A DNA stretch of 64,000 nt from Haliotis cracherodii (Eukaryota), in the NCBI RefSeq assembly GCF_022045235.1, contig NW_027266319.1, positions 16,926,001 to 16,990,000 on the forward strand. The letters are read 5' to 3'. The notes beneath the pieces are model-generated. The model worked only from the letters and a program-made list of their open reading frames with translations, did no database searches and was not told where the DNA came from. Below, in pieces: positions 2,249-60,357 of the stretch (positions are counted from its first letter, which is position 1; every line of letters starts with the position of its first letter). The translations under genes and the position numbers were made by a program.

Positions 2249-4729
<2,481 letters not shown>

Positions 4730-24586: not shown

Positions 24587-25795
24587 ACATGAACTTGTAT
24601 GTAACACGAACCTGTATGTAACACGAACCTGTATGTAACATGAATCTGTATGTAACATGAACCTGTATGTAACATGAACCTGTATGTAACATGAACCTGT
24701 ATGTAACATGAACCTGTATGTAACATGAGCCTGTATGTAACATGAACTTGTATGTAACATGAGCCTGTATGTAACATGAATCTGTATGTAACATGAGCCT
24801 GTATGTAACATGAATCTGTATGTAACATGAATCTGTATGTAACATGAGCCTGTATGTAACACGAATCTATATGTAACATGAATCTGTATGTAACATGAGC
24901 CTGTATGTAACATGAACCTGTATGTAACATGAGCCTGTATGTAACATGAATCTGTATGTAACATGAACTTGTATGTAACATGAACCTGTATGCAACATGA
25001 ACCTGTATGCAACATGAACCTGTATGTAACATGAGCCTGTATGTAACATGAATCTGTGTGTAACATGAACCTGTATGTAACATGAGCCTGTATGTAACAC
25101 GAACCTGTATGTAACATGAATCTGTATGTAACATGAGCCTGTATGTAACATGGATCTGTATGTAACATGAACTTGTATGTAACATGAACCTGTATGCAAC
25201 ATGAACCTGTATGCAACATGAACCTGTATGTAACATGAGCCTGTATGTAACATGAATCTGTATGTAACATGAACTTGTATGTAACATGAACCTGTATGCA
25301 ACATGAACCTGTATGTAACATGAGCCTGTATGTAACATGAATCTGTATTTAACATGAACCTGTATGTAACACGAACCTGTATGTAACACGAACCTGTATG
25401 TAACATGAACCTGTATGTAACATGAACCTGTATGTAACACGAACCTGTATGTAACACGAACCTGTATGTAACATGAATCTGTATTTAACATGAACCTGTA
25501 TGTAACACGAACCTGTATGTAACATGAATCTGTATGTAACACGAACCTGTATGTAACATGAATCTGTATGTAACATGAATCTGTATGTAACATGAACCTG
25601 AGCTGTATTGTAAGCACGTTATGTACATTGTAATCGGGTCCATAGCCTTTCATATGTATGTAACATGAACCTGTATGTAACATGAATCTGTATGTAACAC
25701 GAACCTGTATGTAACATGAACCTTTATGTAACATGAACCTGAGCTGTATTGTAAGCACGTTATGTACATTGTAATCGGGTCCATAGCCTTTCATA
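24587..25795. repeat. 17-bp minisatellite, about 65 copies, with a duplicated 55-bp unique spacer
   Basis: Unit CATGAACCTGTATGTAA; spacer GAGCTGTATTGTAAGC...CTTTCATA at 25600-25654 and 25741-25795. Confidence 0.96.
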
Positions 25796-35832: not shown

Positions 35833-36262
35833 ATGAGCGACTCAAAAGCTGGTTCTGTGACCAGCATCTCTGACGGCCGCGTGGACTCCATGGCAGAGAT
35901 GGTGAAAGACGATGCCCCAAGGGAGGGGCAGGGAAGCAGGTTCTATGTGTACTTCTTGTCGTGTTTCGCCACCCTAGGTGGGTTCCTTTTCGGGTACGAC
36001 ACAGGGATAGTATCCGGATCTATGCTGTTGATTAACCCATACTTTAGCTTAACAACGGTATGGACAGAAGCCATCGTCAGTGCAACCATCGCCGCTGCGG
36101 CGTTCTTCTCCATCGTGGCCGGAGTTTCCACGGACTTTCTTGGCCGAAAGAAGACCATTATGTTGGCGAGTTTTGTGTTCTCCATTGGTGCCGTTGTGAT
36201 GGGCGCGGCCAGGGGGAAGGAAGTGCTGTTGGTTGGCAGGATCATCGTTGGTATGGGTATAG
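35833..36262 (+). CDS. SLC2A13: SLC2A13-like coding exon 1
   Basis: MSDSKAG...[10 protein letters not shown]...[10 protein letters not shown]|gtaagt. Confidence 0.93.
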
Positions 36263-39200: not shown

Positions 39201-42200
39201 TAGCCAATCACGGACCTATAATTTGATCTCACACGTTTGCTGTTATTTCAAATGGGTTTCTCAACCACAGGTGTATAAGAATTTTCCGCCCACATGTCGT
39301 TCTGGTCATGACGTCATACTGCAATAAGTATGACGTCATGTTATTATGATGATGTCACATTGTAACACTTTTGTCCTGATGAACTGAGCGGGAGCGAAAG
39401 TACTTTGTATGCTTGACCGACAAATGACATTCTACAGCGAAGTCAGCATCTATGAATTTACCTAAGTATCTATTTGGCACATTTTTATAATCACACTTCA
39501 GTGATCAGCCAAGTGATTAGTAATGAATAACACTTGTTATCGCCACAGTTTCACGAACAACTTCAGAAATCGATCCAATCACGTTTATCTTGTCGGCCAT
39601 TTGGACGTCCTGTATTGATGTAAATGTATTACGACGCACCGTGACGGTTAATGACTGACGTTGTTCTCAAGGAACCTTTATCTTATTTAATGATGACCTT
39701 ATTTGGATCTATGTGTTATAACCAAACTACAAAAGATGTTCCCGTAGAGCACGTTGAGCATACATACGCTCATGTAACATCTCCAGTTGATGAACTATTT
39801 TATTCCGCGTTACAGTTGTTTGTTGTATGGATGTAAGTGTAAACGTTAATCATACGTACTAAATGAAATTATGCAATACCTGTGAGGTATAAAATAGTTA
39901 TATAAAACTTTGTGAAAGTGAAAGTCAGTTCTTAAATAAATAAAGTTTTTTTATTTTCTATTAACGCGACTACACCAATTACGTGTGGGTATACATGTAT
40001 ATGGGTTTCCTGTCATGTGGTACGGGTGCCTTTACATTGCCCATTGGATTCTTGTCAGTTCATCAAGGTGGTGGGGTCGTATGTTATCTAAACGTCATAT
40101 CATGCAGGTGTCGCGGCTCTCTAACACAGGTGGCCACAATCTAACAACACGAGGCATACAGATCAGTAATTTCAGTGCATGTTGGATTAACCCTTCGATA
40201 CTACCTTCTTCTCCACACATGCACCATTGCATGCATATGTTTCACCTACAACATTAACAGGCATATGCATAGGTGTTTCCTTCTTACTTGTGTTACACCG
40301 CACTCACCAGTATTCCACATGTAGACCACTTCGACCTGTAAATAATCGATTTGGGCGAGGACACGCAGTGGTTGATAACGCGAGCAGTAGCGCTAAGTAG
40401 TGTTATAAGCACTGAGGTACCCTAAGTAGTGTTATATGCACTGAGATACCAACAGTAGTATTATATGGACTGAGATACCGATAGCAGTGTTATATACACT
40501 GAGATACCAGCAGTAGTGTTATAAGCAGTGAGATACCAGCAGTAGTATTATATGGACTGAGATACCGATAGCAGTGTTATATACACTGAGATACCAGCAG
40601 TAGTGTTGTATACACTGAGATACCTACAGTAGTGTTGTATACACTGAGATACCTACAGTAGTGTTATAAGCACTGAGATACCTACAGTAGTGTTATAAGC
40701 ACTGAGATACCCACAGTAGTGTCATATGCACTGAGATACCCACAGTAGTGTTGTATGCACTGGGATAGCCACAGTAGTGTTGTATGCACTCAAATACCCA
40801 CAGCAGTGTTATAAGCACTGAGATACCCACAGTAATGTTATAAGCACTGTGATACCAAAAGTAGTGTTATATACACTGGGATAGCCACAGTAGTGTTGTA
40901 TGCACTGAGATAGCCACAGTAGTTTTATAAGCACTGTGATACCAAAAGTAGTGTTATATACACTGGGATAGCCACAGTAGTGTCGTATGCACAGAGATAC
41001 CCACAGTAGTTTTATAAGCACTGTGATACCAAAAGTAGTGTTATATACACTGGGATAGCCACAGTAGTGTTGTATGCACTGAGATAGCCACAGTAGTTTT
41101 ATAAGCACTGTGATACCAAAAGTAGTGTTATATACACTGGGATAGCCACAGTAGTGTCGTATGCACAGAGATACCCACAGTAGTGTCATACGCACTGATA
41201 TACCGACAGCAGTGTCACATGCACTGAGATACCCACAGCAGTGTTATATGCACTGATATACCAACAGTAGTGTCATATGCACTGAGATACCCACAGTAGT
41301 GTTGTACAATGTGATATCCACAGTAGTGTTATAAGCACTGATATACCAACATTAGTGTCACATGCCAACGTTAGTGTTATATCCAATGTGATATCCACAG
41401 TAGTGTCACATGCTCTGAGATACCCACAATAGTGTCATATACACTTAGATACCCACAGTAGTGTTGTACAATGTGATATCCACAGTAGCGTTATAAGCAC
41501 TGATATACCAACAGTAGTGTCACCTGCTCACAGTAGTGTTATATTCAATGTGATATCTACAGTAGTGTTATATGCAATGTGATACCCACAGTGGTGTTAT
41601 AAGCACTGATATACCAACAGTAGTGTCGCATGCACTGAGATACCCACAGTAGTGTTATAAGTACTGATAAACCAACAATAGAGTCACATGCTCACAGTAG
41701 TGTTATATGCACTGTGATACCGACAGTAGTGTTATATGCGATGTGATATCCACAGTAGTGTTATAAGCACTGATATACCAACAGTAGTGTCGCATGCACT
41801 GAGATAACCACAGTAATGTTATATGCACTGAGATACCTACAGTAGTGTCGCATGCACTGAGATACCCACAGTAGTGTCATTTTCACTGATATACCAACAG
41901 TAGTGTCACATGCACTGAAATAACCACAGTAATGTTATATGCACTGAGATACCCACAGTAATGTTATATGCAATGAAATATTCATAGTAGTGTTATATGC
42001 AATCTGATATCCACATGGTGTAATAAGCAGTGATATACCTACTGTAGTGCCATATGCACTAAGATACCCACTGTAGTGTCATTTTCACTGATATACCAAC
42101 AGTAGGTCTGCATGCAGTGCGATACCGACTGTAGTGCTATGTGCAATGTGATATCCATTGTAGTGTTATATGCACTGATATACCAACAGTAGTGTCACAT

Positions 42201-45200
42201 GCCCACAGTAGTGTTATATGCAATGACATATCCATAGTAGTGTTATATGCACTGATATACCAACAGTAGTGTCACATGCCCACAGTGGTGTTATATGCAA
42301 TGTCATATCCATAGTTGTGTTATATGCACTGATATACCTACTGTAGCGGTATATGCACGGGGGGCGGTCGGGTAGCCTAGTGGTTAAAGCGTTCGCTCGT
42401 CACGCCGAAGACCCGGATTCGATTCCCGACATGGGTACAATGTGTGAAGCCCATTTCTGGTGTCCCCCGCAGTGATATTGCTAAAAGCGGCGTAAAACCA
42501 TACTCACTCACTTACTCACTCATATGCACGGAGATACCCACAGTAGTGTTATATGCAATGTGATATCCACAGTAGTGTTATAAGCACTGATAAACCAACA
42601 GTAGTGTCACATGCCCACAGTAGTGTTATATGCAATGTGATATCCACATGGTGTTTTATGCACTGATATACCTAATGTAGGGTCATATGCTCTGAGATAC
42701 CAAGAGTTAACTCTGACCTATAAATCAGCTGTCATAACTCCAGATAGAGGAGGTATGTCTATGGCTTTCCAACGTCACTTTCTGTCATTTTATATAAAGT
42801 GGGTCGATTAATGAATGTTGTACATTTGCATTAAGACAGCAATATTCCAACTATCACACCGGTCTGTAAGTTATGGATCGGCGAGCCATACCATCCAAAT
42901 AGTTGCGTGTGATTCCCAGAATCCGAAACATATGCCATGCCCACTAATGGAGTACTGTTACCTGATTGGCTGATAAGTGTGTGAATGAGCATAGTTTTAC
43001 GCCTCTTTTAGCAATGTTCCAGCAATATCCAGAAATACACCAGAAATGGGCTTCACACATTGTACCCATGTCGGGAATCGAACCCGAGTCTTCGGCGTGA
43101 GGAGCGAACGCTTTAACCACTAGGCTACCCGACCGCCCCGATTGGCTGATAAGAGAATGAGTGGTTGAGCTTGAATATTGTCACTGATTTAGTATTGTTG
43201 TCTGTAGTGTTTTGTGTTAATGGATAAATAAAGCTTTTATTGTTGAATTATTTATCGATAAGAATTGACTTCAATATGTTTGGTGTATATGAAGAGTTTA
43301 ACTTAAAAAAGACGGAATGCACATATTGCACAAATCCGCTACACGTATTTACACAGGTGTTTACGTTTATAGCTCCATAAACACCAACAATATTGAAACC
43401 TGTCAATTCGAACAGCGTGTAGTTTTGGGAACTTATCATATGTTCACAACAAGCTTCCACAGCAGATGATACAATAAAATTGCATTACAATGCTTTGCAG
43501 ACCATTGTGACAACATCGTGTACCATGGCGTCACAATCAAATGACATTATTAATCTCTCTGCCACTGGAGGTAGTTAGCAGTTAGTACTCTTCACACACA
43601 AGACACTGCATATTTAAGAAACGATCACGAGTCGTGTATTTCCTATATGATACAGCATTTTGTCCAGCCTCTTTAAGCATATTGAAAACATGTTCAAGCT
43701 TTAAAAATATTTACCCGCATTTAAATAATGATGACTCCCTCAATAGAATCCGACCTCGCCAATGTCGGACAAGTCGATTTTATGCATAGGTGGATTTTCC
43801 CCGCATATTCTCACAATCCTCACGTCGATTACCTGTACCTGTTCTCCAAATACCGATTGTCATATCTCACCCGCTTTTAGATGCGTTCGTTCAGCCATCG
43901 CATTAATCTGCGCAACCTGGTTCAAACTGAGAAAAGTTGGAAAATGATCTTTGGATGATGAAAAGAATTATATTCGGATCGATAAATGCTTTAAACCCCT
44001 CAGCAATCCTGTTTTTTTAAAAAATATCTTTTTTTTCAACTTTTATCGACTGATGTTTATATATTTGACATTAAAAGACACTCGAGTGAGATGCTCTATA
44101 CAACCATGAAGCACCATATGGTTAATGAAAACACAGATCATGGAAGATGGAGAAGTTATATAGAGAGACTTATATAAGTTATATGTGCAAATATCTGAGC
44201 TTGGAATCACTTTAGATGAACAAATTATTGCTTGCCATTCTTTTCTGCCTTCAGTAGGGTGACAAACTTATACAAGACCCCTCAAAAGAGGTGTGTCGTG
44301 ACGAGGTTGTTCAGCAGTGCCAAAACCAACATCGACTTTGATATCAAGGGGGTATCACAGAAAGCATGTTGGTAGTCAGGTAGATAGCAATGATGACCTA
44401 CGACCTGGAGGGTGTAGTCAGTATTAGCAATATCAGTTGAATATATGTACGTGCGAATGTGCGATGGCGTACAAACGTGTACGAACGCGTACGAACGCGT
44501 TTCAATGGTGTGTTTGAATGGTGAGTGGTATGTTGAGGTGTCTAATCATTTCAGCATAAAACAAATAATATATTTGGCAGTTGATATGTTGCTCAAAATG
44601 CACATTTTTTCAAGTTTTAAAGAGTGTTTTCTCGCTTTAAATTCAACATTCTAAGCCCAAATTGGACTTTTGGACATCTGTGGTAAATAAATGGATGTTG
44701 AAGTCACATATGATGGCTACAATGGGCGCCAGTCGTCGTGTTTCGTATGAACGTCAGGGACGCCTTCGTCGTTATTAACCTATTTGCACGCATGAGGTTT
44801 TAGCTCAAGTCTTTCTTCAGCAAAGTTTCATACATAATGATAATTTTTTTTACAAGCTACGGTCTCTCTGTTACCGGAAATAGCACACGTTGTATGTGTC
44901 GACAGCCATGAACAGTGGTGTTCAAAAGAGTTATCTCCCCTACCTTCTCACTCCTCACTGGTAGGGCTGCCCTGTGGCATTGTCTGACTGGTGACGAGTA
45001 GTTTTTCTGGGAGGTAATTATTGACGGGGTAGGTTGAAGCATCAGACGCGTGCGCTGTGTGTCCACCTGCGCGTGGCTCCAACATGATTAAACACTTCAA
45101 ACATCAAATCTGGCGGATGTTTTGCAAGAACCTAATCAGCCGCTTCAGCCCTGGTATGATCAATGTCGCTGGCTGGTCGTCGTAAATTGTTGCATGATGG

Positions 45201-48200
45201 TCACCGCTTTCTCTGTGTCGTGTAACTGCACCCTCGCCTACGCGTCTTCATCAGTCATGTCAGGGATGGGATCTCTGTGTTATATAGGACAGTATATGTT
45301 AAATACTGGAGTACACTATTGAATTTTCTGTGTTGTTTTTGACGTTACAGTAAAGTACGGTTATAACGAACTCAAAGGGATTACTAATTTTAGTTCGTTT
45401 TAACCGTAGTTCGTTATAAGCATATATACAGCATAACTACAGCAAATAGTCGGGACCAAAAGAGTAGTTCGTTATATCCGTCAGTTTGTTATAAGCGTGT
45501 TCGTTATAACCGTAGTTTATTGTACTTAAATGTAGGGTAATTTAGAGACAGACTAGAGTTTTTGTTTGTTTGTTGTTTAACGCCGCACACAGCAATATTC
45601 CAGCTATATAATCGAGTCTGGACAGGACAACCAAAGGATTGATATCATGACATGTATCAACCATGTATGGGATACAATGACATGTGTCAACCAAGTCAGT
45701 GAACCTGACTACCCGATCCCGTTAGTCTAGAGTATAACAAATACAAAAGCAACATGATGCTTCTATAAAGCAGTGATTTATCTAAAGTATCTTAAGCCAA
45801 GCATAACATGGTGTACACACAAGTAGCGACAGATCAACTACTTTCGAGCTTAAATTAATCAATACATGATATATAATGCATCATCTACTATCAAGCAATA
45901 CAGAATATATCATAACAAAGAGCATGATATACTTTCAAAAAATACATGATATACCATCAAGAAGTACATGACATACCACCCAGCAGAATATGCTATAGCA
46001 TCAGGCAGTACATGATATAGCATCAGGCAGTACATGATATAGCATCAGGCAGTACATGATATAGTATCAGGCAGTACATGATATAGTATCAGGCAGTACA
46101 TGATATAGTATCAGGCAGTACATGATATAGTATCAGGGAGTACATGATATAGTATCAGGCAGTACATGATATAGTATCAGGCAGTACATGATAAAGCATC
46201 AGGCGGTACATGATGTAGCATCAGGCAGTACATGATATAGTATCAGGCAGTACATGATATATCATCAGGCAGTACATGATATAGTATCAGGCAGTACATG
46301 ATAAAGCATCAGGCGGTACATGATGTAGCATCAGGTAGTACATGATATATCATCAGGTAGTACATGATATAGTATCAGGCATTACATGATATAGTATCAG
46401 GCAGTACATGATTAAGTATCAGGCAGTACATGATACACCCAAATACAGTTACTGTACATGATATACCATCAGACAATTCATGATCTACTCACTATCAAGC
46501 AATGCACGAAATGCCATCAAACAGTACATTATCTCTTATCAGGCAATGCATGATCTACTATCAAGCAGTACATAAAATACTGTTACAAAGTGGAGGCACG
46601 GGTGACCCAGTCTGAGGCGCCGCAATTCGCTGTGCAGAGTTACGTCCCTTGGACACGCCAGAAACCTATGGTTGTGGGTTCGAATCTCGGTTCGCCCGGA
46701 TTATGTTTCTAGGTTTGTCAACACCATACCCATGCTAGAGGGTTTCACCGAGGTGGTAAACGTCTGAGACCTGCATCACCTCGGGCTTTCCTCCCACATT
46801 AAGCTGACACGCCGTGATATAACTGGGATACTGTTACAAGCGGCGTTAAACCCAACTCACTCACACTTTACTTTAAGTATTTACTAGTTATGAGTATGTG
46901 ACGCGTCCAGTCCAGTTGTGCTTGTAGGTGCGGTCGGCATGTCGATTCCCATTTGACACCCACACCCATCCACACACCTGTAGTACTGGCGCACAGTGCA
47001 GTTAAAACAACCAGAAAAAAACTGGAAATTAAAACACGATTATTATCTTCCTTAAGTGGTTAAAACTGTGTTTCTTAGATACGCCTCACTTTGGCTGAGT
47101 GCAAGTCACTGCTTGACGTGTCCATTAGTTGACAACACAAGAACATGTCTAGAGAATGACTTTTTAAACAGGGATACCCGCAACTGGTTATGGACAATAA
47201 TTCCGTTATCATTTCAGACAGTACTGTTAAGTCACGTGACCAGCCGCGATAGAGACACATTACCTTTGAACTCAACTTGGCCATAGGAGAGAAATATCCG
47301 TGTGAAATAATTTTGATATATTATTTATGACGACCAATTTATATTCAGGATATTTAAGTTCTTAAATATTTCGAATGAGATATTTTCAATTTGAAACTTG
47401 GAGACAACAGATTTACAGTGTATGTATTCCCATGACGTAACACAGTCATGTGATTATTTGAGGGCGTGGTCTACTATTTCGTCACGTGGTCAAATCTAGT
47501 CAAGCTAAATTCAACACTGGCGTTTTTGTATATACAGCTATATCCACCTTTGGGCGAAACAATCCAACGGAAAATTAAAACGGAAAATGTTTGAAAATAA
47601 AAACAATCCTTCACATGAAAATACTCATGAAAAACTATAATTTGGAGAATGAATTTTCCATTGAACGAAATGTAAATGGTACTAATTATTATTCGCCTCT
47701 TGTCTTGGCAGTCGTGAAGACCCTTGGCAGTTTCTTGTCTGAACGAGTGTATTGTGGGGACACTCGAAAATATCATGTCCGCTTAGGATTATGATCGGTC
47801 ACAGATTCGGTAGAAAAAAAATCGAAACTTGATAGAACGACCCTATTCAGAAAGAGCGTAGAGGGTGTAATATTATCGGCGTTTCTCTTCTGCGCCATTT
47901 TATATGTACTATTGATAACAGCTGGCCACACTACCCAAACTATTTGAACTACTCGAGATTCTAGTTCTGACAGGTTGGTTATGCTGCACTTCAATGTGTC
48001 ATCAATTATCAAAGTGTCCAACTACAGTGTCAGCATTAGTCACTTCTTGACAACATAAGGACGTGAAAAGAGTTCAGAGCTTAACGCTCGCACTATAGTC
48101 AAAGCCACAAATACCTATACGGTACCCATTCTTTCATATTCTTTTGGTGTTGTTGATTGGACGAAACAAGAAATGCAGGGTATCGACACCCTCACACGAA

Positions 48201-50465
48201 GAATCGTGCCAGATAAAAAATCTCACCAACCTCGCTCTGCCCTCAATCGCGGGGTTTGATTAACGTATAGGCTCTTCATGATATTGTATTGTGCACATTT
48301 GCACACGTTTTCTTGTCTGATGAAGCATGTCAAGACTCATAATGAAAACAAAGCATTCCACAGTTTCCTTAAACGAGCCAAGGATGTCGGACATAATCTC
48401 AATGTGAGTGCTGATTTTGTTGATGGTCTTGTCAACCAAGCGAAGTGCCATATCAAATCAGACCAGATTCAGTTTTTCAGGGAGAGGCTATCTGAACGAC
48501 CACTGCATCTAGTTTATGTTCAGCGTGTTGAGAAGAACAGCAACCCTACTTCGCTTGGATGAAGTCGGCTGGCCAGGGAAGTGAAGTTTTTTGTTTGCTG
48601 CTCAGGACCAGTCACTTCCCACTTGAAGCCGTCAATGTGTGATTTTGCATCATAATGTAAATATGAAATGTAGATTATGCAATGAATTTAATGAGACTGT
48701 CCGACACATTGTCAGTGGATGCCCAGGGTATGCACAAACACTGTTTCTTAAGCGACACGAGGGCGTGTCTCGATCCTTTTATTACCGTCTTGGCCATGCC
48801 TGTGGTTTTGTCGCAGACGTCCACCCGTGGTCCGACCCAGAATATGTAGAGGGCGTCATGGAAAATGATAAATACAAAATTCTTTGGCACAGGCCCTTAT
48901 ACAGACTCTGGTTGGGCAGCGTTCCTGAGGAAGTCCGATTCGCTGTCTGGGCTTGCGTGTAGAGGGGGCAAGCGCCCTGAGCTAATGATGAGCCTAAGCA
49001 GTCTGACTATGCCTGGATCATCCAAACACTCTTTGATGCATTTATTTATTTGTATCTGTACATTATGATAATAAAGTCCATTTGTATGGCGTTTTTACAT
49101 GCTGAATATATCCAAAGAGCAGAAAGAAAAAACAAAGTTTAGTCAAAGGCTTGGCTGGTGCGGAGTCAAGTTCTAAAGGCTGAGTAGGTTAAATAGTTGC
49201 GAAGTTCAAGGAAAGATTGTTCCACTGATTGGCTGCTTCATTGGAGAAAGATCGCTGTCCATAACTACTAGTTAAAATTAGACACAAGACGTTGTGATTC
49301 TGAACGGAGAGATCCGGAGGTTAGGTGGAGGAAGGTCACAAGGACATGATGGAGCTGTTTCATTGTGTCACTGAGTGGAACAAATTATGCTGCTTTGTTC
49401 TGGATGGATAGTAGGCTGTTGACTTTTAGGAGAACCTGCAAGTAGACTTTAGCAAATAGTCAATCCTCGAGATGATTTGGGAAAGACTCAATAGTGCAAG
49501 TGACATATTTGACAGCTGACTGAACTGTTTGAGTAGCTTGAGGTCAGAATCTAGGATAACACAAGGTCCTTTCCACTGGAGGAAATTGGAATTGATAATT
49601 CTTCAATATTAACTATCTCAAGGTGACAATTGTTGAGTCTTCTTGAAGGACTAATTACAATTAATTATTCTCGTCATTAAGCCTTAGTTTGTTGAGAGAC
49701 ATCCATGCCTTAGAGTATTGACAGGAGTCAGACAGTTACTGAGTCAATAGATGTTGAAGGATCAGGCTTGAAGAACTTGAGGAGTGTCGTTGAATAGATG
49801 ATGCAGACTTTGTTTCTGGGTGTTGTCACCAATGAGTTTTGCATAGAGAGTAAAGAGGGTTGGACTGAGGACCGATCCTTGTGGGACTCCATATTCAAGA
49901 TGAATAGGAGCGGATGGTACTCTTTGTCAGACAGAATTTCACCCAGTTCAGTGCAGATCCTCTGAGGCCAACTTCATTAAATTGTCTCCTCATGGTGAAT
50001 GGTGTCAAAGGCTAAGCTGAGGTCCAGAAGAAGTAAAAGGGCAACATTACCATTATCAACACCACGTCGTAGATCGTTAATGGCTTTGAGCAGGGCGGTT
50101 TCTGTGCCATTATGGGCCATGTAGGCTGATTGCAGAGGCTAGTGAAGATTGTACGTTTCAAGATGTTCTGAGAGACGATGACAAAGGGTTTCGTCTACAA
50201 GCTTCGATATATATGACCGATTAAATACTGATTTGCTTCAGGTTTGCTGAGTCAAGTCCTGTTCTTTTCAGTAGCCATGGCAGCCATTAGGACATTTGGC
50301 ATAGTACCAGATGTAATGGACGAGTGAGATTTTTGTTATGTTTGGTAGCAAGATATCCATATTCTCACAGACACGTTGTGTCGGGGTTTGGCAAAAGTGC
50401 AATATGAAATGAGGAAAACGCCACGTTCATGAGCATTGAATTTATGTAGCGATGTGCTTTAACAC

Positions 50466-50510
<45 letters not shown>

Positions 50511-53500
50511 CGCGCGTGTGTGCATGTGTGTCTTTACTTGTACTAGTCCAGGCCGATGCCATTGTTATAGTGCTAGACCTTTTTATATACCCTGCTGCAG
50601 TTAAACAGATTCCCGACACAGACGACTTGTGACTCCTAGCCGAACGTCAGACAGGGTAACAAAAAATACGATCTTTTAACATCTTTTGGTATGAGATCTT
50701 CGCTCTACTGGATGTCCTTCACTGGCCAACACCTGGTGTCACGGATTGTGAATGACACAGGAGCGAATACCTGGTGTCAGGGCAAGGTATTTTCACAAAC
50801 GTAGCGAACACCTGTTGCCATTGTCACAGGGATCCTGGCGTTCTGGTTTTGTGTTGAAAAAAAAATCCTCATGTTGTGTTCGAATTTAAAAGATGTGTTA
50901 ATTTTACTTTCGGACTTCCTCATACATATTTCACACAAAATGATTATACATGTAGTTGTGCAATATTAGAAAAAAAGGAAGTCAGACCTTGTCTAACCAC
51001 CACGCTTGCAATAGTTTCCAGATATGCCCTCGCGTTCACTGTCTTCTGAAGGTACTTCCTTTATTCATTGAGTGATGACGCACCTTCCACACTTCTTTGG
51101 CTTGTACCATGGCAGTAATAGCCTGAGCTTAATCTACTCATGTCTTCTCTTAGGTTCTCTCGTTACAGCAAAGAGCGACGAGATTGGTAAGGATCAATTC
51201 ACAACGACGTTGAAACCCAGCCGTGGCATTAAGACACTGTGATCCTGGTCTGGTTTTACGTTCACAAAAGGCGCGCGCCGATGACGATGTCATTGAATAT
51301 TGCTCAGCAGACAGGAAGTTTGTAGACAAGGTCACCAATTGCTTATATTGATATTCATTCATACCAGAATTAAGCTTTCTAACTAGTATGGTGGCAATGC
51401 CAATATCATACACATATATCATATTCTGTCCGAATGTGCTGTCTTTATGACCAATGTATTCGGCATCGCCTGCGATTTGGGCCAGCTGTCTGTCACAACA
51501 GAAACATCGAACACCAAGAGAGACATCTAAATGCATGATTGATAACTAATGTCATTTCGGAGACATTCGTATAACTGAGGTCCATGCTATCCTTTCACCA
51601 GTGTTGCTTTGCTTGTTCTTATTGCGTGAATGTTTTTCACATATTATTGTAAAGGGTTTACACATATAACGTCGACTGCATTATCCACCATTTACAAACT
51701 ACAGTCAGATGTGACCACCATATACTGACTACAGTCAGATGTTGTCTCCATATGTACTGAGCACTGTGTCAGAAATGACATTCGTATAACTGAGGTCCAT
51801 GTCATCCTTTCACCAGTGTTGCTTTGCTTGTTCTTATTGCGTGAATGTTTTTCACATATTATTGCAAAGGGTTTCCACATATAACGTCGACTGCATTGTC
51901 CACCATTTACAAACTACATTGTGACCACCATATACTGACTACAGTCAGATGTGACCACCATATACTGACTACAGTCAGATGTGGTCACCACATACTGACT
52001 ACAGTCAGATGTGGTCACCATATGTACTGAGTACTGTGTTAGAAATGACCACAATGTAATAACTTTGAAGTCAGATGAGACCGCCTATTGTATTGGTTAT
52101 ACTCAATACTAAATATTAAAAGCATTTTACTGATGGGATGGGTGTAGACGAAACAAATTATAATTAAATAATAAACACTCCACGTGCTGTCACTTCAATA
52201 ACAAGGAAACAGAGATGCAAGTTACAAGATGCAAGATGCAGATGCAAAAACGATGACACACCCTCGAGGTGGAATTTAAGCGTCCTAGTACCGATGACAG
52301 TTTGCCACTGATGTACTGGGGCTTTCAGTGAACGACCCACAAAATTCCGTCCAATTGTTGTCATCAGCCATACTGAGTAGCACGAGAGTAACAATATTAT
52401 TTCTTGCTTTTAGGGTTTGCGTCTATGACGGTGCCAGTGTACGTCGCCGAGGCTGCCCCTCCAACCATCCGGGGACGTCTTGTCACCCTCAACCAGCTCT
52501 TCATCACCATTGGCATCGTCGTCTCCGCTCTCGTCGCTGGCGCCTTCAGCTTCCTCAAACCAGAGGGATGGCGGTACGTGGGAGTGCTGCGTATTTTGTT
52601 AAATTAAATGCAGGTTGATCGCGGGGACTCCGGCTTAAAACTGGTCCCCAGCATCTTATGCTGTTCGTAAGAGGCGACCAAATGAATCGTGTGGTCAGGC
52701 TCGGTGCCTTGCGTCATGACGTGTCATTGTATCCCAAAGGCGTGGGTAGTTGTTCACAATATCCATATATCTTAAATATTGCCGCGTTCATCGTTAAACA
52801 ACAAACAAAAAAACAATGCAGGTTGAAAAAAAATAATAAAACATCCACAATGAATGTCAGCAACAGAAATCATTGTCCTCCCCAAATATTTTAAAGTATC
52901 CCCCCCTATCCACACTTTAGGTAGAAAAGCAAATAAAATTCATATAATTGACGGTCCAATTATACCATTACCATTAATAAGTGACGGATGCCGCAGGTGG
53001 GGCAGTATACGCTCACCTTTTCGCGAACACATGGTATCATTACTATGTTGCTAGTGATTCACAAACACGTGCTCATGATGTAGTCGGAATCGTGCAATGG
53101 TGATTTCTTATGATTATGGAAATAGTATTTAATTATTATTTAATATATTCCACAGCTACATGCTAGGGCTGGCTGGAGTCCCGGGGGTGATCCAGTTTGT
53201 TGGTTTCTTCTTCCTCCCCGAATCCCCCCGCTGGCTTGTGGACAAGGGCCGGATAGACGAGGCAAGGAAGGTGCTACAGAAGATCCGAAGCACGGACAAC
53301 GTTCAAATGGAACTGCAGGAGATTCAGGACAACATCGAGATGGATAGGAGGAACTCTCCTGGAGGTGAGAACAGAAGCTAGAAGGTAGAGGATAAGATAG
53401 ATGGGCGGGGAGAGCTCTCCTGGAGGTGAGGGTAGAGGATAAGATAGATTGGCGGGAAGAACTCTCCTGGAGGTGAGGGTAGAGGATAAGATAGATGGGC

Positions 53501-56500
53501 GGGGAGAACTCTCCTGGAGGTGAGGGTAGAGGATAAGATAGATGGGCGGGGAGAACTCTCCTGGAGGTGAGGGTAGAGGATAAGATAGATGGGCGGGGAG
53601 AACTCTCCTGGAGGTGAGGGTAGAGGATAAGATAGATGGGCGGGGAGAACTCTCCTGGAGGTGAGGGTAGAGGATATGCTGGTCAGGACGATCTCTCCTG
53701 GAGGTGAGGGTAGAGGATAGGCTGGTCAGGACGATCTCTTCTGGAGGTGAGGGTAGAGGATAGGCTGGGTGGTCAGGACAATCTCTCGGGGAGGTGAAGA
53801 TAGAGGATAGGCTGGGTGGGCAGGACGATCTCTCCGGGAGGTGAGGATAGAGGATAGGCTGGGTGGACAGGACGATCTCTCCGGGAGGTGAGGATAGAAG
53901 ATAGGCTGGTCAGGACGATCTCTCCTGTGAGGATAGAGGATAAGCTGAATAGGCAGGATGACCGTTCCTGGAGGTGAGGGTAGATGATAGGATAGTTGGA
54001 CAAACGATATCTTCACGAGATGAGGGCACTGATAGGATGGAGAGGAAAGTCTTTCCCTGTGGTAAGATGAGCAAGAAGGTCCCCACTGCAGTTGAGTGGA
54101 TAGGGTAGATGAAGGTAAGGTGATGGGTAGGATGAACATTATTTTGTTCCTTGCAGGCAGCGCGCTTGGTCGGATCTTCAAAACCCCCCACGTGCGGAAG
54201 GCGTTGTTTATCGGCGGCGGACTGCAGCTTTTCCAGCAGCTGTGTGGCATCAACACTGTCATGTGAGTTGAACAAAAGCGCTGTATTAGGACGTTTGTTT
54301 ATTGTTTAACGCCACATTCAGCAATATTCCAGCTATATGACGGCGATCTGTAAATAATCGAGTCTGGACCAGACAATCCAGTGACTGACATCATGAGCAT
54401 CGATCAACGTAATAGGCACCTTCTACGACAAGCATGGGTTGCTGAAGATCTATCCTACCCCGGATCTTCAGTGGTCGTATTAGGTACGTAAATAAGTTCA
54501 CCAAGAGCATGCTCATGATTCACGTTCTTGCACGCGTACCATGCGGAAGGAAATAATTGCTGTGCCCCGTCGTGATCTGTCTGCAGTATGCAACCTCCAT
54601 TTACGAAAAGGAAAGAGAAACATTATGACACATATATACCCTCTTCCATATCTTCCATTTTTTCTGCCTCGGGGAATATATCCATGACAATCGAACAACA
54701 TAGAGTAATATCCGAGTTATGTTTGGCATTTAACATGGTTTCTAATACGTCGAGTTAAATGAGTGAGTGAGTGAGTGAGTTGGGTTTAACGCCGCTTTTA
54801 ACAGTATTCCAGTTATATCACGGCGTGTCAGCTTAATGTGGGAGGAAAGCCCGAAGTGATGCAGGTCTTAGACGTTTACCACTTCGGTGAAACCCACGAG
54901 CACGGGTATGATGCTGACAAACCTAGAAACATAATCGGGGTGAACCGGGATTAGAACCCACAACCATAGGTTTCTGGCGTGCCCAAGGGACGCAACTCTG
55001 CACAGCGAATCGCGGCGCCTCAGTCGACTGGGTCACCCGTGCCCCCTCGAGTTAAATGAACACACATAGACTCTGACGATGAATGGGTTGACCATATGGG
55101 TTGTGATGGTCTTGCAGCTACTACAGCGGTTCTATTATCAAGATGGCAGGGTTCCCGTCCAAGTTCGCCATCTGGCTGGTCATGGTGCCGAACACAGTCA
55201 ACTTTTTGGCCACCTTCATCGGTATTTGGCTGGTGGAGAAACTCGGGAGGAAGATCCTGACAGTGGCCAGCTTTGCAGGTGAAACATACACAGGGTTCTG
55301 TTTTGTCTCTGAAACATAAAGCAACTTTCCAAACAATACGAAAGAACAATACGTCCAAATCAGTCCTAAAATTACCCAACGTCGATATGATGAAAAGTTC
55401 GATGATCCCACACGATAAATGTATTATACACCTGCTTAATTATCACACTTAATAACACACACACGCACGCAGGCACACACCACACCCATACACCCACACC
55501 ACGCAGACACACCCATACTCACCCCACACCCACACATGCACCCCAACACCACCTGCACGCATACACCAATACTACGCACGCACACACGCACACATCACAC
55601 AGACATACACCTATCCCCCACCCCCACCCACGTATATACACACATACAACAAAAAACAAAAAAACAAAAAAAGACAACAAACAACACACACAATCACACA
55701 CGTGCGCACTCACGAACGCACACACACACGCGCGCGCATTCATATATATACATATAAACAGTTACAAAAGTGATGAAATAAGAACAGAAAATAGAACGAT
55801 ATTACAGGGAGACCCTCTAAGTTCAGACAATAATCTGAAACTTACTACCCGCTCCTGTCTGTTAAGGACATGCAATACTCTTGAAAGCAGTGTCAAACTT
55901 ACACCCACACTGTGAAAGGTATATAGCCCGTACATATAATTTATCTGAGGTGTGTTGCCGCTTCAGCTGTGGTGATCGCCCTGATCGTGCTGGCTGTAGG
56001 CTTCCAGTTGTCGGCGGTCTACACCCCTACTATCAGCAAGAACACAACAGAGTTGACGGACAATGGAACAGTGATACAGGACAAGTGCGCGACTTACAGG
56101 TGCTGTCTTCATCTACTACATCCCTTCTTAATCGCACAGGGCCCACTTGCACAAAGCGATCTTAGCGCTAAGATGATCGTAACTCCTATACTTTAACATA
56201 GGCTTACGACAGTCTTAGTCGCTTTGTGCAAGTGGGCCCTGGTCATCATCTCTGTTAAACGCGGCGTCATGGAAGGGCACGGTATTTTCATTTAAAAATA
56301 TGTTGAATGGAATGCCTAGGTTAAGGTTAATTTGAAATTCATTTTTTGTTACTAAATAAATGCTTGGTTAGTATGGCCGCCAGTCCCTGTGATGCCTGTA
56401 TTATATCCCATCTGTTCTCTATTCCACAGTCTCTGCGAGGGTTGTATCAACAACAAGAAGTGTGGTTATTGTTTTCACGAAAACTCAGCAGACTCAGGTG

Positions 56501-59500
56501 GCAGCTGCCTTGCCCCATCTCAAATAGAGAAACAGAAGGAAATTAACTCCGAGTATGGTCGGTGTAACGACACCGACAACAGCGACTTCACCTACGCCGT
56601 CGGCTACTGCCCCACAGATTACGCCTGGATGGCAATCCTCGGGCTGACTCTCTTTTTACTTGGATTTGCACCAGGTTAGCGCGTTTTGTCACAGCGATAT
56701 ATGACGGCGTTGTGACAGAGTTCTGTCAGGGGTTTATGTCACGGCTTTGTGCTAGTATTGTTTAATCGGGATGTTGTGTCAGCACGTTACGTCAATGTCT
56801 TATGTCAGGGCGTTCTGTCCAAACGTTGTGAAAGGGCATTGTGTTTTGGGGTTGAGCAAGGCGTTGTGTCAGCACGCTGCTTCAGGGTGTGTAGTATGAG
56901 CGTGTTGTGTGAGAAGTTGTGTCAGGGTTTTGTGTCAATGCGTTGTATCAGGGCATGGTGACCGTGGGTTGAGTCTGGGCGTCGGATCGGAGCATTGTGT
57001 AAAGGTCCTGTGTCAGGGTGTTGTATCGGCACATCGTACCAAGGTCTTGAGTCAGGGTGTTGTATCGGGGCATGGTGACCGTGCGTTGAGTCTGGGCGTT
57101 GTATCGGAGCATTGTATCAAGGTCTTGTGTCAGGGTGTTGTATCGGGGCATTGTATCAAGGTCTTGTGTCAGAGTGTTGTATCGGAGCATTGTGTCAAGG
57201 TCTTGTGTCGGGGTGTTGTATCGGGGCTAGTATCAAGGTCTTGTGTCAGAGTGTTGTATTGGAGCATTGTGTCAAGGTCTTGTGTCAGAGTGTTGTATCG
57301 GGGCATTGTATCAAGGTCTTGTGTCATGGTGTTGTATCGGGGCATTGTATCAAGGTCTTGTGTCAGGGTGTTGTATCGGGGCATTGTACCAAGGTCTTGT
57401 GTCAGGGTGTTGTATCGGGGAATGTATCAAGGTCTTTTGTCAGGGTGTTGTATCGGAGTATTGTGTCAAGGTCTTGTGTCAGGGTGTTGTATCGGAGTAT
57501 TGTGTCAAGGTCTTGTGTCAGGGTGTTGTATCGGAGTATTGTGTCAAGGTCTTGTGTCAGGGTGTTGTATCGGAGTATTGTGTCAAGGTCTTGTGTCAGG
57601 GTGTTGTATCGGAGTATTGTGTCAAGGTCTTGTGTCAGGGTGTTGTATCGGGGCATTGTATCAAGGTCTTGTGTCAGGGTGATGTATCCGGGCATTGTAC
57701 CAAGGTCTTGTGTCAGGGTTTTGTATCGGGGCAAGTATCAAGGTCTTGTGTCAGGGTGTTGTATCGGGGCATTGTACCAAGGTCTTGTGTCAGAGTGTTG
57801 TATCGGGGCATTGTACCAAGGTCTTGTGTCAGGGTGTTGTATCGGGGCATTGTACCAAGGTCTTGTGTCAGAGTGTTGTATCGGGGCATTGTGTCAAGGT
57901 CTTGTGTCAGGGTGTTGTATCGGAGTATTGTGTCAAGGTCTTGTGTCAGGGTGATGTATGGGGGCATTGTACCAAGGTCTTGTGTCAGGGTGTTGTATCG
58001 GAGCATTGTGTAAAGGTCTTGTGTCAGGGTGATGTATCCGGGCATTGTACCAAGGTCTTGTGTCAGGGTGTTGTATCGGGGCATTGTGTCAAGGTCTTGT
58101 TTCAGGGTGTTGTATCGGGGCATTGTATCAAGGTCTTGTGTCAGGATGATGTATGGGGGCATTGTATCAAGATCTTGTGTCAGGGTGTTGTATCGGGGCA
58201 AGCTTTTCATTTTTCAGGGCAGTTGTGTCATGACATTGTGTCGGGTTTGTGTGGAAGGGTGCTAGGTGTTGTGGCTGAGCGTTGTGCCAGACCTTGATGC
58301 CACGGTTTTGTGTCAGTTTGTTTTTGACAGGGCGTTATGCCATGTCCTGGTGTAATGGTAGTGTGCTCGCACGTTGTTGCATGGCGTTGTATCAGGTTGT
58401 TGTGTCATTGCGTTGTGTTAAGGTGTTTTGTTATGACGTTGTGACATGACCTTTTTATTGGGGAGTTGTTATGGGTCGTTTTGTCATGGCCTTGTGTAAG
58501 GGTGTTGTGTTAAGGTTTGTTGTGTCAGGGAATTCTGATTGATATAAACATTATTTCAGTACTCTCAACAATGACTCGAATAGTGTATCAAAATATGTCA
58601 ACTGTCATATTTTACTGACAATGGGATATGCGCGTAGCGTATATGTATTGAGTTTTAAAACTGTTATTTTCTAGGTTTAGGACCAATGCCTTGGACAATA
58701 AATTCAGAAATATTTCCCCTCTGGGCACGTGGAACCTGCATTGCCATGACGACAGCTGTAAACTGGGTCTGTAATCTCATAGTGTCCTTCACCTTCCTCA
58801 CACTCACGGAAACTATAACAAAATACGGTAAGCCCACACACCTTCCACGTTATAGCCATAGTGCATACCAGTGACCTCAATTGATTAGATATCGGCTGCA
58901 TTTTGAGTTTTGAAAATTCGATCACCTGTTCGCGTCATACCAAAAGACGTTAAAATATGGTACTTGTTGTTACCTGAGATACTTGCTACGGCATGGTATC
59001 TCAGGGGGCTAGCATTATAAAATTGGATTAACACACATCATAAGTGTATCTCCAGTGCAGTATTAAACAGCATGACATATCTCTCTGGCGTCAAAGCGTA
59101 TCTCTAGTACAGTATTGAACAGCATGGCATATCTCTATGTCAAGACGTATCTCTTGTGCAGTATTAAAGTTTATGACATATATCTATGGCGTAAGGCGTA
59201 TCACTAGTACAGTATTGAACAGCATGACATAACTCTATGACGTCAAGACGTATCTCTTGTGCAGTATTAAAGTTTATGACATATATCTATGACGTCAAGA
59301 CGTATCTCTTGTGCAGTATTAAAGTTTATGACATATATCTATGGCGTCAAGGCGTATCGCTAGTACAGTATTAAACATTATGACATTTATCTATGGCGTC
59401 AAGGCGTATCGCTAGTACAGTATTAAACATCATGACATATATCTATGGCGTCAAGGCGTTTCAATAGTACAGTATTCAACAGCATGGCATATATCTATGG

Positions 59501-60357
59501 CGTCAAGGCGTATCGCTAGTACAGTATTAAACATCATGACATATATCTATGGCGTCAAGGCGTATCACTAGTACAGTATTATACATCATGACACATATCT
59601 ATGGCGTCAAGGCGTATCACTAGTACAGTATTAAACAGCATGGCATATATCTATGGCGTCAAGGCGTATCGCTAGTACAGTATTAAACAGGATGGTATAT
59701 CTCTATGGCGTCAAGGAGTATGTCTAGTACAGTATTAAACAGGATGGTATATCTCTATGGCGTCAAGGAGTATGTCTAGTACAGTATTAAACAGGATGGT
59801 ATATCTCTATGGCGTCAAGGAGTATGTCTAGTACAGTATTAAACAGGATGGTATATCTCTATGGCGTCAAGGAGTATCTCTAGTACAGTATTAAACAGGA
59901 TGGTATATCTCTATGGCGTCAAGGAGTATGTCTAGTACAGTATTAAATAGGATGGTATATCTCTATGGCGTCAAGGAGTATGTCTAGTACAGTATTAAAC
60001 AGGATGGCATATCTCTATGACGTCAAGGCGTATCTCTAGTACAGTATTAAACAGCATTATCGCTACAGTTAGACACAGGAAAAGGAGTTCTTTTTTAGGG
60101 TAGTTACGACTATAATCGCTGGGTAGTCTGCACTGGTGCTCTGCATTAGTATGGGATATATTTCAGGCACGTTCTGGCTGTTTGGTGGCATCTGCTTCCT
60201 AGGGATGCTGTTCACGCTGGTGTTTGTGCCGGAAACGAAGGGGAAGACGCTTGAAGAGGTGGAAATGTTGTTCATGACGCCAGAAAAGAGAGAAGAACGC
60301 CGAGCTCAGAGTCAGCAGTCAGCAGAGAAATATGTATACTCAAACACCAAAATGTAG
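35833..60357 (+). CDS. SLC2A13: Proton myo-inositol cotransporter (HMIT/GLUT13-like, MFS sugar porter), 9 coding exons: join(35833-36262, 52414-52573, 53156-53364, 54157-54262, 55118-55278, 55967-56099, 56430-56674, 58675-58827, 60167-60357), 595 aa
   Basis: Sugar-porter motifs [11 protein letters not shown]-x-x-[24 protein letters not shown]-x-x-[26 protein letters not shown], plus the Cys-rich luminal loop (C..C....CGYC, YCPT) characteristic of HMIT. All 8 introns GT-AG with consistent phases; 1788 nt total; in-frame TAA 9 nt upstream of the ATG. Confidence 0.93.
36660..37150. repeat. 33-bp minisatellite in SLC2A13 intron 1
   Basis: CAAATGACGTATAATATGACAATACAACACAGA, about 14 copies. Confidence 0.94.
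37835..38784 (+). mobile_element. SINE family C interrupted by an about 670-bp insert (37931-38602)
   Basis: Head to GGGTTCGAT at 37930, resuming CCGGTTCG at 38603; outer TSD TAATATTGATTC at 37822-37833 and 38785-38796. Confidence 0.88.
40395..42692. repeat. 29-bp minisatellite with local higher-order repeat and a SINE insertion
   Basis: Unit CACTGAGATACCCACAGTAGTGTTATATG; variant GATACCAAAA recurs every 87 bp (40851, 40938, 41025, 41112). Confidence 0.94.
42361..42521 (+). mobile_element. SINE family A inserted in the 29-bp satellite
   Basis: TSD ATATGCACGG at 42351-42360 and 42522-42531. Confidence 0.94.
42978..43139 (-). mobile_element. SINE family A
   Basis: TSD GATTGGCTGATAAG at 42964-42977 and 43140-43153. 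Confidence 0.92.
45348..45522. mobile_element. Tc1/mariner-pogo-type MITE
   Basis: TIR CAGTAAAGTACGGTTATAACGAAC / GTTCGTTATAACCGTAGTTTATTG, TA on both flanks, internal TTCGTTATA repeats. Confidence 0.85.
45560..45727 (-). mobile_element. Retroposon family D, 3' part
   Basis: (TTTG)n TTAACGCCGCAC...CCCGATCCCGTTAGTC. Confidence 0.8.
45960..46436. repeat. 22-bp minisatellite, about 21 copies
   Basis: CAGTACATGATATAGTATCAGG. Confidence 0.94.
46592..46866 (+). mobile_element. SINE family C
   Basis: Full-length alignment to family C. Confidence 0.9.
48060..48895 (+). mobile_element. R4/Dong-like non-LTR retrotransposon relic (RT C-terminus and CCHC knuckle)
   Basis: [43 protein letters not shown]; QDQSL; [19 protein letters not shown]...KRHEGV...[11 protein letters not shown]; degraded. 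Confidence 0.8.
49170..50330 (-). mobile_element. L2/CR1-group LINE ORF2 relic
   Basis: [22 protein letters not shown]...[17 protein letters not shown]; [17 protein letters not shown]; [10 protein letters not shown]; [16 protein letters not shown]. Confidence 0.85.
50405..50710 (-). mobile_element. SINE family B (degenerate) containing an expanded (TG)n(CG)n microsatellite
   Basis: CTTGTACTAGTCC, ATAGTGCTAG and AGACAGGGTAACAA motifs; microsatellite 50469-50522. Confidence 0.78.
51562..52049. repeat. About 215-bp tandem duplication with internal 30-bp expansions
   Basis: GACATTCGTATAACTGAGGTCCATG at 51562 and 51777; GTGACCACCATATACTGACTACAGTCAGAT repeated in copy 2. Confidence 0.9.
52414..52573 (+). 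CDS. SLC2A13: SLC2A13-like coding exon 2
   Basis: ttttag|[25 protein letters not shown]...GW CG|gtacgt. Confidence 0.93.
52610..52812 (+). mobile_element. Retroposon family D (degenerate)
   Basis: CGTAAGAGGCGAC...GTGGTCAGGCTCG...CGTTAAACAACAAAC. Confidence 0.65.
53156..53364 (+). CDS. SLC2A13: SLC2A13-like coding exon 3
   Basis: cacag|[11 protein letters not shown]...PESPRWL...NSPG G|gtgaga. Confidence 0.92.
53351..54000 (+). repeat. 43-47-bp purine-rich minisatellite derived from the exon3/intron3 junction
   Basis: Unit GAACTCTCCTGGAG|GTGAGGGTAGAGGATAAGATAGATGGGCGGGGA, about 13 copies. Confidence 0.93.
54157..54262 (+). CDS. SLC2A13: SLC2A13-like coding exon 4
   Basis: ttgcag|[38 protein letters not shown]|gtgagt (not in ORF track). 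Confidence 0.92.
54292..54476 (-). mobile_element. Retroposon family D (internally deleted)
   Basis: GTATTAGG on both flanks; family motifs present. Confidence 0.82.
54763..55046 (-). mobile_element. SINE family C, about 70 nt upstream of the exon 5 acceptor
   Basis: TSD TCGAGTTAAATGA at 54750-54762 and 55047-55059. Confidence 0.93.
55118..55278 (+). CDS. SLC2A13: SLC2A13-like coding exon 5
   Basis: ttgcag|[13 protein letters not shown]...[27 protein letters not shown]|gtgaaa. Confidence 0.92.
55456..55752. repeat. CA-rich low-complexity/microsatellite tract
   Basis: Degenerate (CA)n/(CACG)n. Confidence 0.8.
55967..56099 (+). CDS. SLC2A13: SLC2A13-like coding exon 6
   Basis: cttcag|[17 protein letters not shown]...DKCATY AG|gtgctg (weak donor, but the phase fits exon 7). 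Confidence 0.85.
56137..56241. mobile_element. Harbinger-like palindromic MITE in SLC2A13 intron 6
   Basis: CAGGGCCCACTTGCACAAAGCGA ... TCGCTTTGTGCAAGTGGGCCCTG, perfect 23-bp inverted termini. Confidence 0.85.
56430..56674 (+). CDS. SLC2A13: SLC2A13-like coding exon 7
   Basis: ccacag|[15 protein letters not shown]...[24 protein letters not shown]|gttagc. Confidence 0.92.
56940..58202. repeat. 39-bp minisatellite in intron 7, about 31 copies, with degenerate flanks
   Basis: TCAAGGTCTTGTGTCAGGGTGTTGTATCGGGGCATTGTA. Confidence 0.95.
58675..58827 (+). CDS. SLC2A13: SLC2A13-like coding exon 8
   Basis: ttctag|[21 protein letters not shown]...ETITKY G|gtaagc. Confidence 0.93.
58931..59030 (+). 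mobile_element. SINE family B fragment
   Basis: CGCGTCATACCAAAAGACGTTAAAATATGGTACTTGTTGTTACC. Confidence 0.7.
59045..60056. repeat. 52-bp minisatellite in intron 8, about 19 copies
   Basis: CTATGGCGTCAAGGCGTATCGCTAGTACAGTATTAAACATCATGACATATAT. Confidence 0.94.
60167..60357 (+). CDS. SLC2A13: SLC2A13-like coding exon 9 (terminal)
   Basis: tttcag|[14 protein letters not shown]...[13 protein letters not shown]...NTKM*. Confidence 0.92.

What the first reader, a model, noticed from the sequence alone, without database searches (positions are those of the whole stretch)
53351..54000. Minisatellite that multiplies a functional 5' splice site
The repeat unit is the last 14 nt of SLC2A13 exon 3 plus its donor. 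The true donor is GAG|GTGAGA (GT at 53365). Copies with GAG|GTGA occur with GT at 53426, 53473, 53520, 53567, 53614, 53661, 53704, 53747, 53794, 53841, 53888 and 53974, mostly GAG|GTGAGG and of similar U1 complementarity. Using any of them extends the exon through the in-frame TAG at 53379-53381. That would truncate the transporter after its N-terminal 6-TM half and probably trigger NMD. Twelve competing decoy donors in a purine/G-rich context fill most of a 792-nt intron. They must either be silenced or act as a copy-number-tunable splicing/NMD rheostat (inference).
Basis: partly seen in the sequence, partly recalled or inferred. Interest (0 to 1): 0.7.

Follow-up and report, generated by a model that had tools for sequence, protein, structure and literature searches.

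The report
Splice-donor minisatellite in sugar-transporter intron
The end of one exon of a sugar-transporter gene, with its splice signal, is copied 12 times into the next intron, yet the assembled transcripts splice at the first, true signal, so this is likely a harmless repeat of a kind already known from human and lancelet genes.

Summary
All 12 extra GAG|GTGA sites lie at the stated places, and 11 are predicted to pair with this genome's U1 as well as the true donor. Use of any copy would stop the 595-aa protein at 271 aa. The rheostat reading has no support here. In 5 of 5 RNA-like runs from 4 studies the only joint is 53364-54157; these are contigs, so a rare or NMD-depleted leak is not excluded. 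The intron is older than the array, since 7 paralogs share its phase-1 donor. The arrangement is published: human F7, CBS, LMNB2, PDGF and 6-16 minisatellites and amphioxus 'mirages', where the first donor usually wins. It is also frequent here: 12 of 288 other sampled exon ends in this genome carry such an array. This scan has noted the same kind before on other DNA, in this genome too. Best reading: a tolerated junction-spanning minisatellite whose copies lose by position. New member of a known kind; low interest.

The parts
35833..60357 (+).
   Evidence: Gene model gives one open frame; Pfam Sugar_tr and TIGR00879; exon 2-3, 3-4 and 4-5 links seen in RNA-like contigs
53156..53364 (+). Exon 3 (209 nt); its last ~27 nt are the exon-derived part of the repeat unit
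53365..53373 (+). True 5' splice site, the only one seen in use
   Evidence: Joint 53364-54157, GT..AG, in 5 of 5 RNA-like runs; U1 duplex -9.7
53370..53383 (+). 14-nt A-rich stretch found only behind the true donor; holds the in-frame TAG at 53379-53381
   Evidence: Unit alignment; translation
53384..53660 (+). Homogeneous block of 47-nt units (type 1); donor copies at 53426, 53473, 53520, 53567, 53614 and 53661
53661..53999 (+). Mixed block of 39-47-nt units (type 2); donor copies at 53704, 53747, 53794, 53841, 53888 and 53974; unit at 53927 lacks the AG
54000..54140 (+). Degenerate tail, likely decayed units; donor-like sites at 54062 and 54115
   Evidence: Likeness to the exon end reached by 8, 697 and 11 of 5000 shuffles in three pieces; U1 duplex -8.0 and -10.0
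54141..54156 (+). Pyrimidine tract and 3' splice site
54157..54262 (+). Exon 4 (106 nt)

Best explanation
This is a minisatellite whose unit spans the exon 3/intron 3 boundary and so repeats the splice donor 12 times; assembled transcripts splice at the first donor, likely because the most upstream site wins by position, and the array is likely neutral. Shown: the array, the donor copies, the canonical joint, other unit mixes in other runs, and similar arrays at other splice sites of the genome. Inferred: a local duplication of about 27 nt of exon plus about 20 nt of intron inside an old intron was amplified by slippage or unequal exchange, and it is tolerated because the first unit keeps exon and donor intact. 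Also inferred: exon definition or 5'-to-3' scanning picks the donor nearest the upstream acceptor (a 209-nt exon against 270-818 nt). G-runs around the copies may add repression, and NMD would remove rare leaks.
For: The only joint in 5 of 5 RNA-like runs, 4 studies, is 53364-54157, at contig depths 23-1293. In X1 and X3 intron contigs down to depth 2.3-2.4 survive, yet no joint or loose end links a unit to exon 4. The true donor has no sequence or folding advantage: U1 duplex -9.7 against -10.2 for 11 copies, and opening energy 3.85 against 1.3-2.5 for the first five copies. That leaves position or context. Human F7 minigenes show that identical downstream copies are functional but unused (PMC1557585), and amphioxus mirages are reported not to disturb splicing. 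7 of 7 paralogous exons end in a phase-1 GT, read by eye. The array matches only this locus in the genome (the search skips common words). Unit variants differ between runs (4-nt indels, a 14-nt insertion at 54112). 12 of 288 other exon ends carry such arrays.
Against: All runs laid are contigs, which drop rare forms, and NMD would deplete copy-spliced mRNA further. Table 8 was cut (555 rows, 20 rows). The runs come from other individuals or related organisms whose arrays differ from the window's. In human 6-16 and CBS the nearest one or two copies are used (PMC1557585 introduction). The scanning result is mammalian and was not tested for this animal. G-runs flank most copies but not the true donor, so sequence-based repression may matter as much as position.
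Confidence: 0.82

Rival explanations
1. Small unregulated leak: the nearest one or two copies (53426, 53473) are used in a small share of transcripts, which NMD clears, with no selected role.
For: The two nearest pseudo-sites are used in human 6-16, and two in CBS (PMC1557585 introduction). The copies are predicted as strong as the true donor and more open. Contigs cannot show rare forms.
Against: No joint or loose end from a copy to exon 4 in X1 (depth 1293) or X3 (depth 745), although contigs of depth 2.3-2.4 are kept. F7, LMNB2 and PDGF use only the first site.
Confidence: 0.12
2. Copy-number-tunable rheostat: unit number or splicing-factor levels set the share of transcripts sent to NMD and so tune transporter level.
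For: Every copy gives the same 271-aa truncation with six junctions downstream. The array varies between runs. A CBS junction VNTR is linked to enzyme activity (title only, in reference lists). Tandem repeats that alter splicing are catalogued in humans (PMC10078293 passages).
Against: No product seen. About 4% of sampled exon ends in three unrelated families and in the paralogs carry the same arrangement, on either side of exons, which points to a general by-product. Units have lost or weakened the donor (53794, 53927, 54020).
Confidence: 0.04
3. The intron itself was born from a tandem duplication of an exonic AG|GT (the Rogers model), with the first copy as donor and the last as acceptor.
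For: The last ~45 nt of the intron resemble the exon end (11 of 5000 shuffles, one of four pieces tested), so unit-like sequence reaches close to the acceptor.
Against: 7 of 7 paralogous exons (43-55% protein identity to this exon) have a phase-1 donor at the same place, and exon 4 is a separate match in 4 paralogs, so the intron predates these gene duplications. The units contain intron-type sequence, not the start of exon 4.
Confidence: 0.02

Closest known systems
Human F7 intron 7 37-bp VNTR (Borensztajn et al. 2006, PMC1557585; read: abstract, synopsis, introduction, result passages, whole Discussion)
   Same: First monomer spans the exon-intron boundary; the true donor is followed by a ladder of donor copies; only the most upstream one is seen in use.
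   Different: F7 has 5-9 identical units with 4 exon nt. Here there are about 13 units of two types with about 27 exon-derived nt, the copies differ from the true donor from +6 on, and all copies lie behind an in-frame stop. No minigene test exists here.
Amphioxus 'mirages' (Adh3, troponin C, globins BflGb6/BflGb9, PGBD5; read: passages of PMC3087553 and PMC3902484)
   Same: Minisatellite-like tandem copies of an exon-intron boundary in a marine invertebrate, at either boundary, length-unstable, reported not to disturb normal splicing.
   Different: Another animal group (earlier scan notes call this genome an abalone; not tested here). Length variation of this array was not measured, only variation in unit type.
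Human CBS intron 13 31-bp VNTR, 6-16 intron 2, LMNB2 100-bp and PDGF 81-bp repeats (as summarised in PMC1557585; CBS nomenclature in passages of PMC2630376; original papers not read)
   Same: Donor reiterated by a junction-spanning minisatellite; LMNB2 and PDGF use only the true donor.
   Different: CBS and 6-16 also use two pseudo-sites; no such use was seen here.

Membership tests
Junction-spanning minisatellite ('mirage', F7-type) | Tandem array whose unit contains an exon-intron boundary of the host gene | tested here: met
   boundary confirmed by spliced contigs
Junction-spanning minisatellite ('mirage', F7-type) | Splice signal reiterated in most units | tested here: met
   12 copies with AG|GT; 11 at U1 duplex -10.2
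Junction-spanning minisatellite ('mirage', F7-type) | Normal mRNA made from the terminal, authentic site | tested here: met
   Joint 53364-54157 in 5 of 5 RNA-like runs; contigs only
Junction-spanning minisatellite ('mirage', F7-type) | Length polymorphism or instability (VNTR) | tested here: inconclusive
   Other runs hold other unit variants and indels, but no contig spans the array and the runs carry different organism codes
Junction-spanning minisatellite ('mirage', F7-type) | Copies are functional when the first donor is removed (shown for F7) | not testable with these tools
   Needs minigenes
Repeat-controlled splicing/NMD rheostat (spl-TR; CBS- or 6-16-like use of copies) | Transcripts spliced from downstream copies exist | tested here: inconclusive
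   None listed in 5 of 5 runs, but contigs show presence, not absence
Repeat-controlled splicing/NMD rheostat (spl-TR; CBS- or 6-16-like use of copies) | Splicing ratio or expression tracks unit number | not testable with these tools
   No paired genotype and raw RNA data
Intron gain by tandem duplication (Rogers model) | Intron position is new, absent from homologs | tested here: not met
   Phase-1 donor at the same place in 7 of 7 paralogous exons
Sugar porter family (MFS) | Sugar_tr / TIGR00879 profile match | tested here: met
   Exon 3 E 2.4e-18 and exon 4 E 3.7e-05 in Pfam, both over the cut-off; best NCBIfam match TIGR00879 for exons 1 and 3, below its whole-protein cut-off as single exons
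SLC2A13 (HMIT) orthology | Reciprocal best match or tree placement with vertebrate SLC2A13 | not tested

The most novel reading that the evidence does not exclude
The donor ladder is a working dial: nearby copies are used at a rate set by unit number and type, every such mRNA ends at the same stop and is destroyed, and so alleles differ in transporter level. With about 4% of splice sites built this way, the genome would carry thousands of such repeat-tuned NMD switches.
Probability: 0.04. Interest if true: 0.6.

Novelty: new member of a known kind. Interest (0 to 1): 0.12.

Why it matters
As it stands it matters little: one more example of a published repeat type. The wider observation is of modest use. 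If about 4% of splice sites in this genome are reiterated (12 of 288 in a non-random sample), the genome offers many natural tests of how a spliceosome chooses among near-identical donors and acceptors outside mammals, and a trap for gene prediction. If copy number did tune NMD, it would be a fast-mutating expression control on a transporter.

Tried and rejected
RNA folding as the silencer: rejected. The true donor is not more open than the first copies in three local-folding settings or by opening energy. U1 strength as the selector: rejected. Dispersed element as the source: only this locus matched; that search skips very common words. Recursive splicing through the units: considered unlikely from the sequence, since the AG before each GT is GAG with a short pyrimidine run; not tested further. 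Enrichment of arrays exactly at splice sites: a point-based null gave 0.72% (111 of 15,400) against 4.2% seen, but a matched bin test gave 12 against a mean of 4.7 per 70 nt (P 0.0035) with neighbouring intron bins as high (10 at 0-69, 13 at 210-279), so it is not established. No holder is on record as RNA ('no RNA holder listed'); I treat X1, X2, X3, X5 and X7 as transcripts only because their contigs join exons 2-5. Lack of contig cover at 53364-53441 is not used, since the two DNA-like runs also lack it and lack exon 3. Copy number in other individuals could not be read, because no contig spans the array. No MaxEnt-type score was available; U1 duplex energy was used instead. The Atlas look-up gave nothing. 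Two papers were not held (PMC306954; a 2023 Cell paper on VNTRs recalled from memory). A search for tandem repeats + splice sites + enriched + minisatellites + mollusc found 0 papers; one search in an incomplete library is no proof of absence. No supplements were read.

Full report
Observation. The window holds a nine-exon gene on the + strand (35833-60357) that gives one open frame of 595 aa. Its exons match the sugar-porter family. Exon 3 ends at 53364 and exon 4 starts at 54157. TRF calls an array at 53384-53999, period 47, 13.4 copies, 87% matches. Against the U1 5' end taken from this genome, the true donor scores -9.7 kcal/mol, 11 copies -10.2 and one -7.0. Sites at -9.0 or better number 12 in this 792-nt intron and 3 in the other seven introns, about 21.9 kb (two boundaries there were off by 17 and 2 nt and were corrected). 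Read-through meets the TAG at 53379-53381. Every copy would give a 271-aa product, with the stop 44 nt before the first copy's junction, 91 nt or more before the others, and six junctions downstream.

Anatomy. Units cut at the GT are 61, 47 (five times), 43, 43, 47, 47, 47, 39, 47 and 46 nt, followed by a decayed tail. The exact 14-nt exon match holds in 5 of 12 copies, and weaker likeness reaches about 27 nt into the exon. There are two unit types, a homogeneous 5' block and a mixed 3' block. Only the true donor is followed by a 14-nt A-rich stretch, and it has no G-run within 30 nt on either side, whereas all 12 copies have at least one. Pieces of the tail resemble the exon end at 204, 8, 697 and 11 of 5000 shuffles, so the array probably once reached close to the acceptor. 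A DNA search of the genome with the intron matched only this locus.

Which donor is used. No holder is on record as RNA. Contigs of five RNA-like runs from four studies (X1, X2, X5, X7; X1, X3) each join 53364 to 54157 with GT..AG ends, at depths 1293, 23, 440, 24 and 745; in X1, X3 and X5 the listed loose ends continue into exons 2 and 5. No other splice joint is listed; one search lists only two short depth-2 joints inside the dispersed repeat beyond exon 4. In one search the records that only partly fit were 1 of 10 (X1) and 2 of 8 (X3), accounted for by the mRNA contig and an intron insertion, while intron contigs of depth 2.3-2.4 were kept. This is evidence that the first donor dominates, not that copies are never used: contigs drop rare forms, tables were cut, NMD would deplete the products, and these animals carry other unit mixes. 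The two DNA-like runs (X16, X20) hold the array with 4-nt indels, substitutions and, in X20, a 14-nt insertion at 54112; 47-nt type-1 units were seen in X16 only. No contig spans the array, so copy number is unknown.

Age of the intron. A protein search with exon 3 found 7 close paralogous exons. Each has a GT in phase 1 at the matching place, read by eye, and exon 4 is a separate match in four of them. The intron is therefore older than the array, which rejects intron birth by duplication.

How common. Three of the seven paralogs carry arrays over an acceptor: 61 bp x 4.5 and 93 bp x 22 at exon 3, and 45 bp x 15.7 at exon 7. I then sampled 110 exon matches of P450, SNF and AMP-binding families (110 of the 226 matches listed, picked as likely internal exons or by score) and 49 paralog exon matches. 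12 of 288 exon ends have an array that starts inside the match and runs into the intron: 5 donors and 7 acceptors, or 11 events if two paralogs are merged. Unit sequences were checked by eye for the repeated GT or AG. Left out of the count: long, apparently intronless matches (L021-L033, L081-L091), distant transporter hits L014-L017 (L014-L017, L033 and L091 were scanned with no array at their match), and ends at the start or end of a profile. Two more P450 paralogs share one of the donor arrays but fell just outside the rule. Exon ends are profile or tblastn edges, not RNA-verified, and the sample is not random. Whether arrays favour splice sites is open: about 6-fold by a point null (111 of 15,400), but 2.5-fold by matched bins, with neighbouring bins as high.

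Mechanism. Neither U1 pairing nor folding favours the true donor, so position or context must. The best-supported account is the one tested for human F7, where a 37-bp VNTR repeats the donor, each copy works once those before it are inactivated, and only the most upstream intact one is used, even against stronger copies (PMC1557585). Transfer to this animal is inference. Repression by G-runs and clearance by NMD are further inferences from general knowledge. The array would be tolerated because its first unit keeps exon and donor intact.

Known kin. The same paper lists 6-16, CBS, LMNB2 and PDGF; two pseudo-sites are used in the first two and none in the others. Amphioxus 'mirages' repeat either boundary and are reported not to disturb splicing (PMC3087553 passages; PMC3902484 passage). 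I saw passages of PMC2630376 and PMC10078293, and only the listing and start of the abstract of the ABCA7 VNTR paper PMC5954066. No supplements were read. Earlier notes of this scan report the same kind in several other genomes and at other places in this one. They are unchecked, they came after my own reading, and they call this genome an abalone, which I did not test.

Verdict. Real, correctly described in the main, and ordinary: a new member of a known kind. Neutral with the first donor winning 0.82, small unregulated leak 0.12, regulated rheostat 0.04, intron birth 0.02. Interest 0.12.

Noticed in passing
L010 (G000:C56 about 32,534,150-32,536,200): A paralog of this gene has a 93-bp x 22 array, 95% matches, that repeats the acceptor of the same exon 3. 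The units read AG|GT, so each copy would leave a donor-like end if used.
   Followed up: partly
L008 1645-1909 and L103 (G000:C56 about 32,311,850-32,312,560): Two more paralogs have acceptor-spanning arrays: 61 bp x 4.5 at exon 3 and 45 bp x 15.7 at exon 7.
   Followed up: partly
L058 868-1531 and 1711-2863: One SNF-family exon is flanked by arrays on both sides: 48 bp x 13.8 over its acceptor and 40 bp x 28.9 over its donor.
   Followed up: no
L041, L094, L138-L140, L151, L158, L164, L167: Further junction-spanning arrays in P450, AMP-binding and SNF genes. In L094 the copies read AAG|GTAAGC while the first, true-looking donor reads AAG|GTAGGC. L138-L140 and L164/L167 share arrays between tandem paralogs.
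   Followed up: partly
window 54062 and 54115: Two donor-like sites in the decayed tail, one as strong as the true donor by U1 pairing (-10.0) and 42 nt before the acceptor.
   Followed up: partly
window 2252-3918, - strand: An alpha-tubulin-like gene (recognised from the translation, not searched).
   Followed up: no
window, whole: Many unrelated minisatellites, e.g. 26 bp x 93 at 5546-7956, 17 bp x 68 at 24581-25741, 39 bp x 33 at 56917-58200 and 52 bp x 19.5 at 59046-60057. Of the gene's 16 splice sites only this donor lies at an array.
   Followed up: partly
window about 54290-54400: A dispersed repeat just behind exon 4 that occurs in very many transcript contigs; a similar sequence lies in L011 2079-2317.
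   Followed up: no
G000:C6 about 9,319,000-9,362,000: U1 snRNA genes stand in a tandem array with a spacing of about 565 bp.
   Followed up: no
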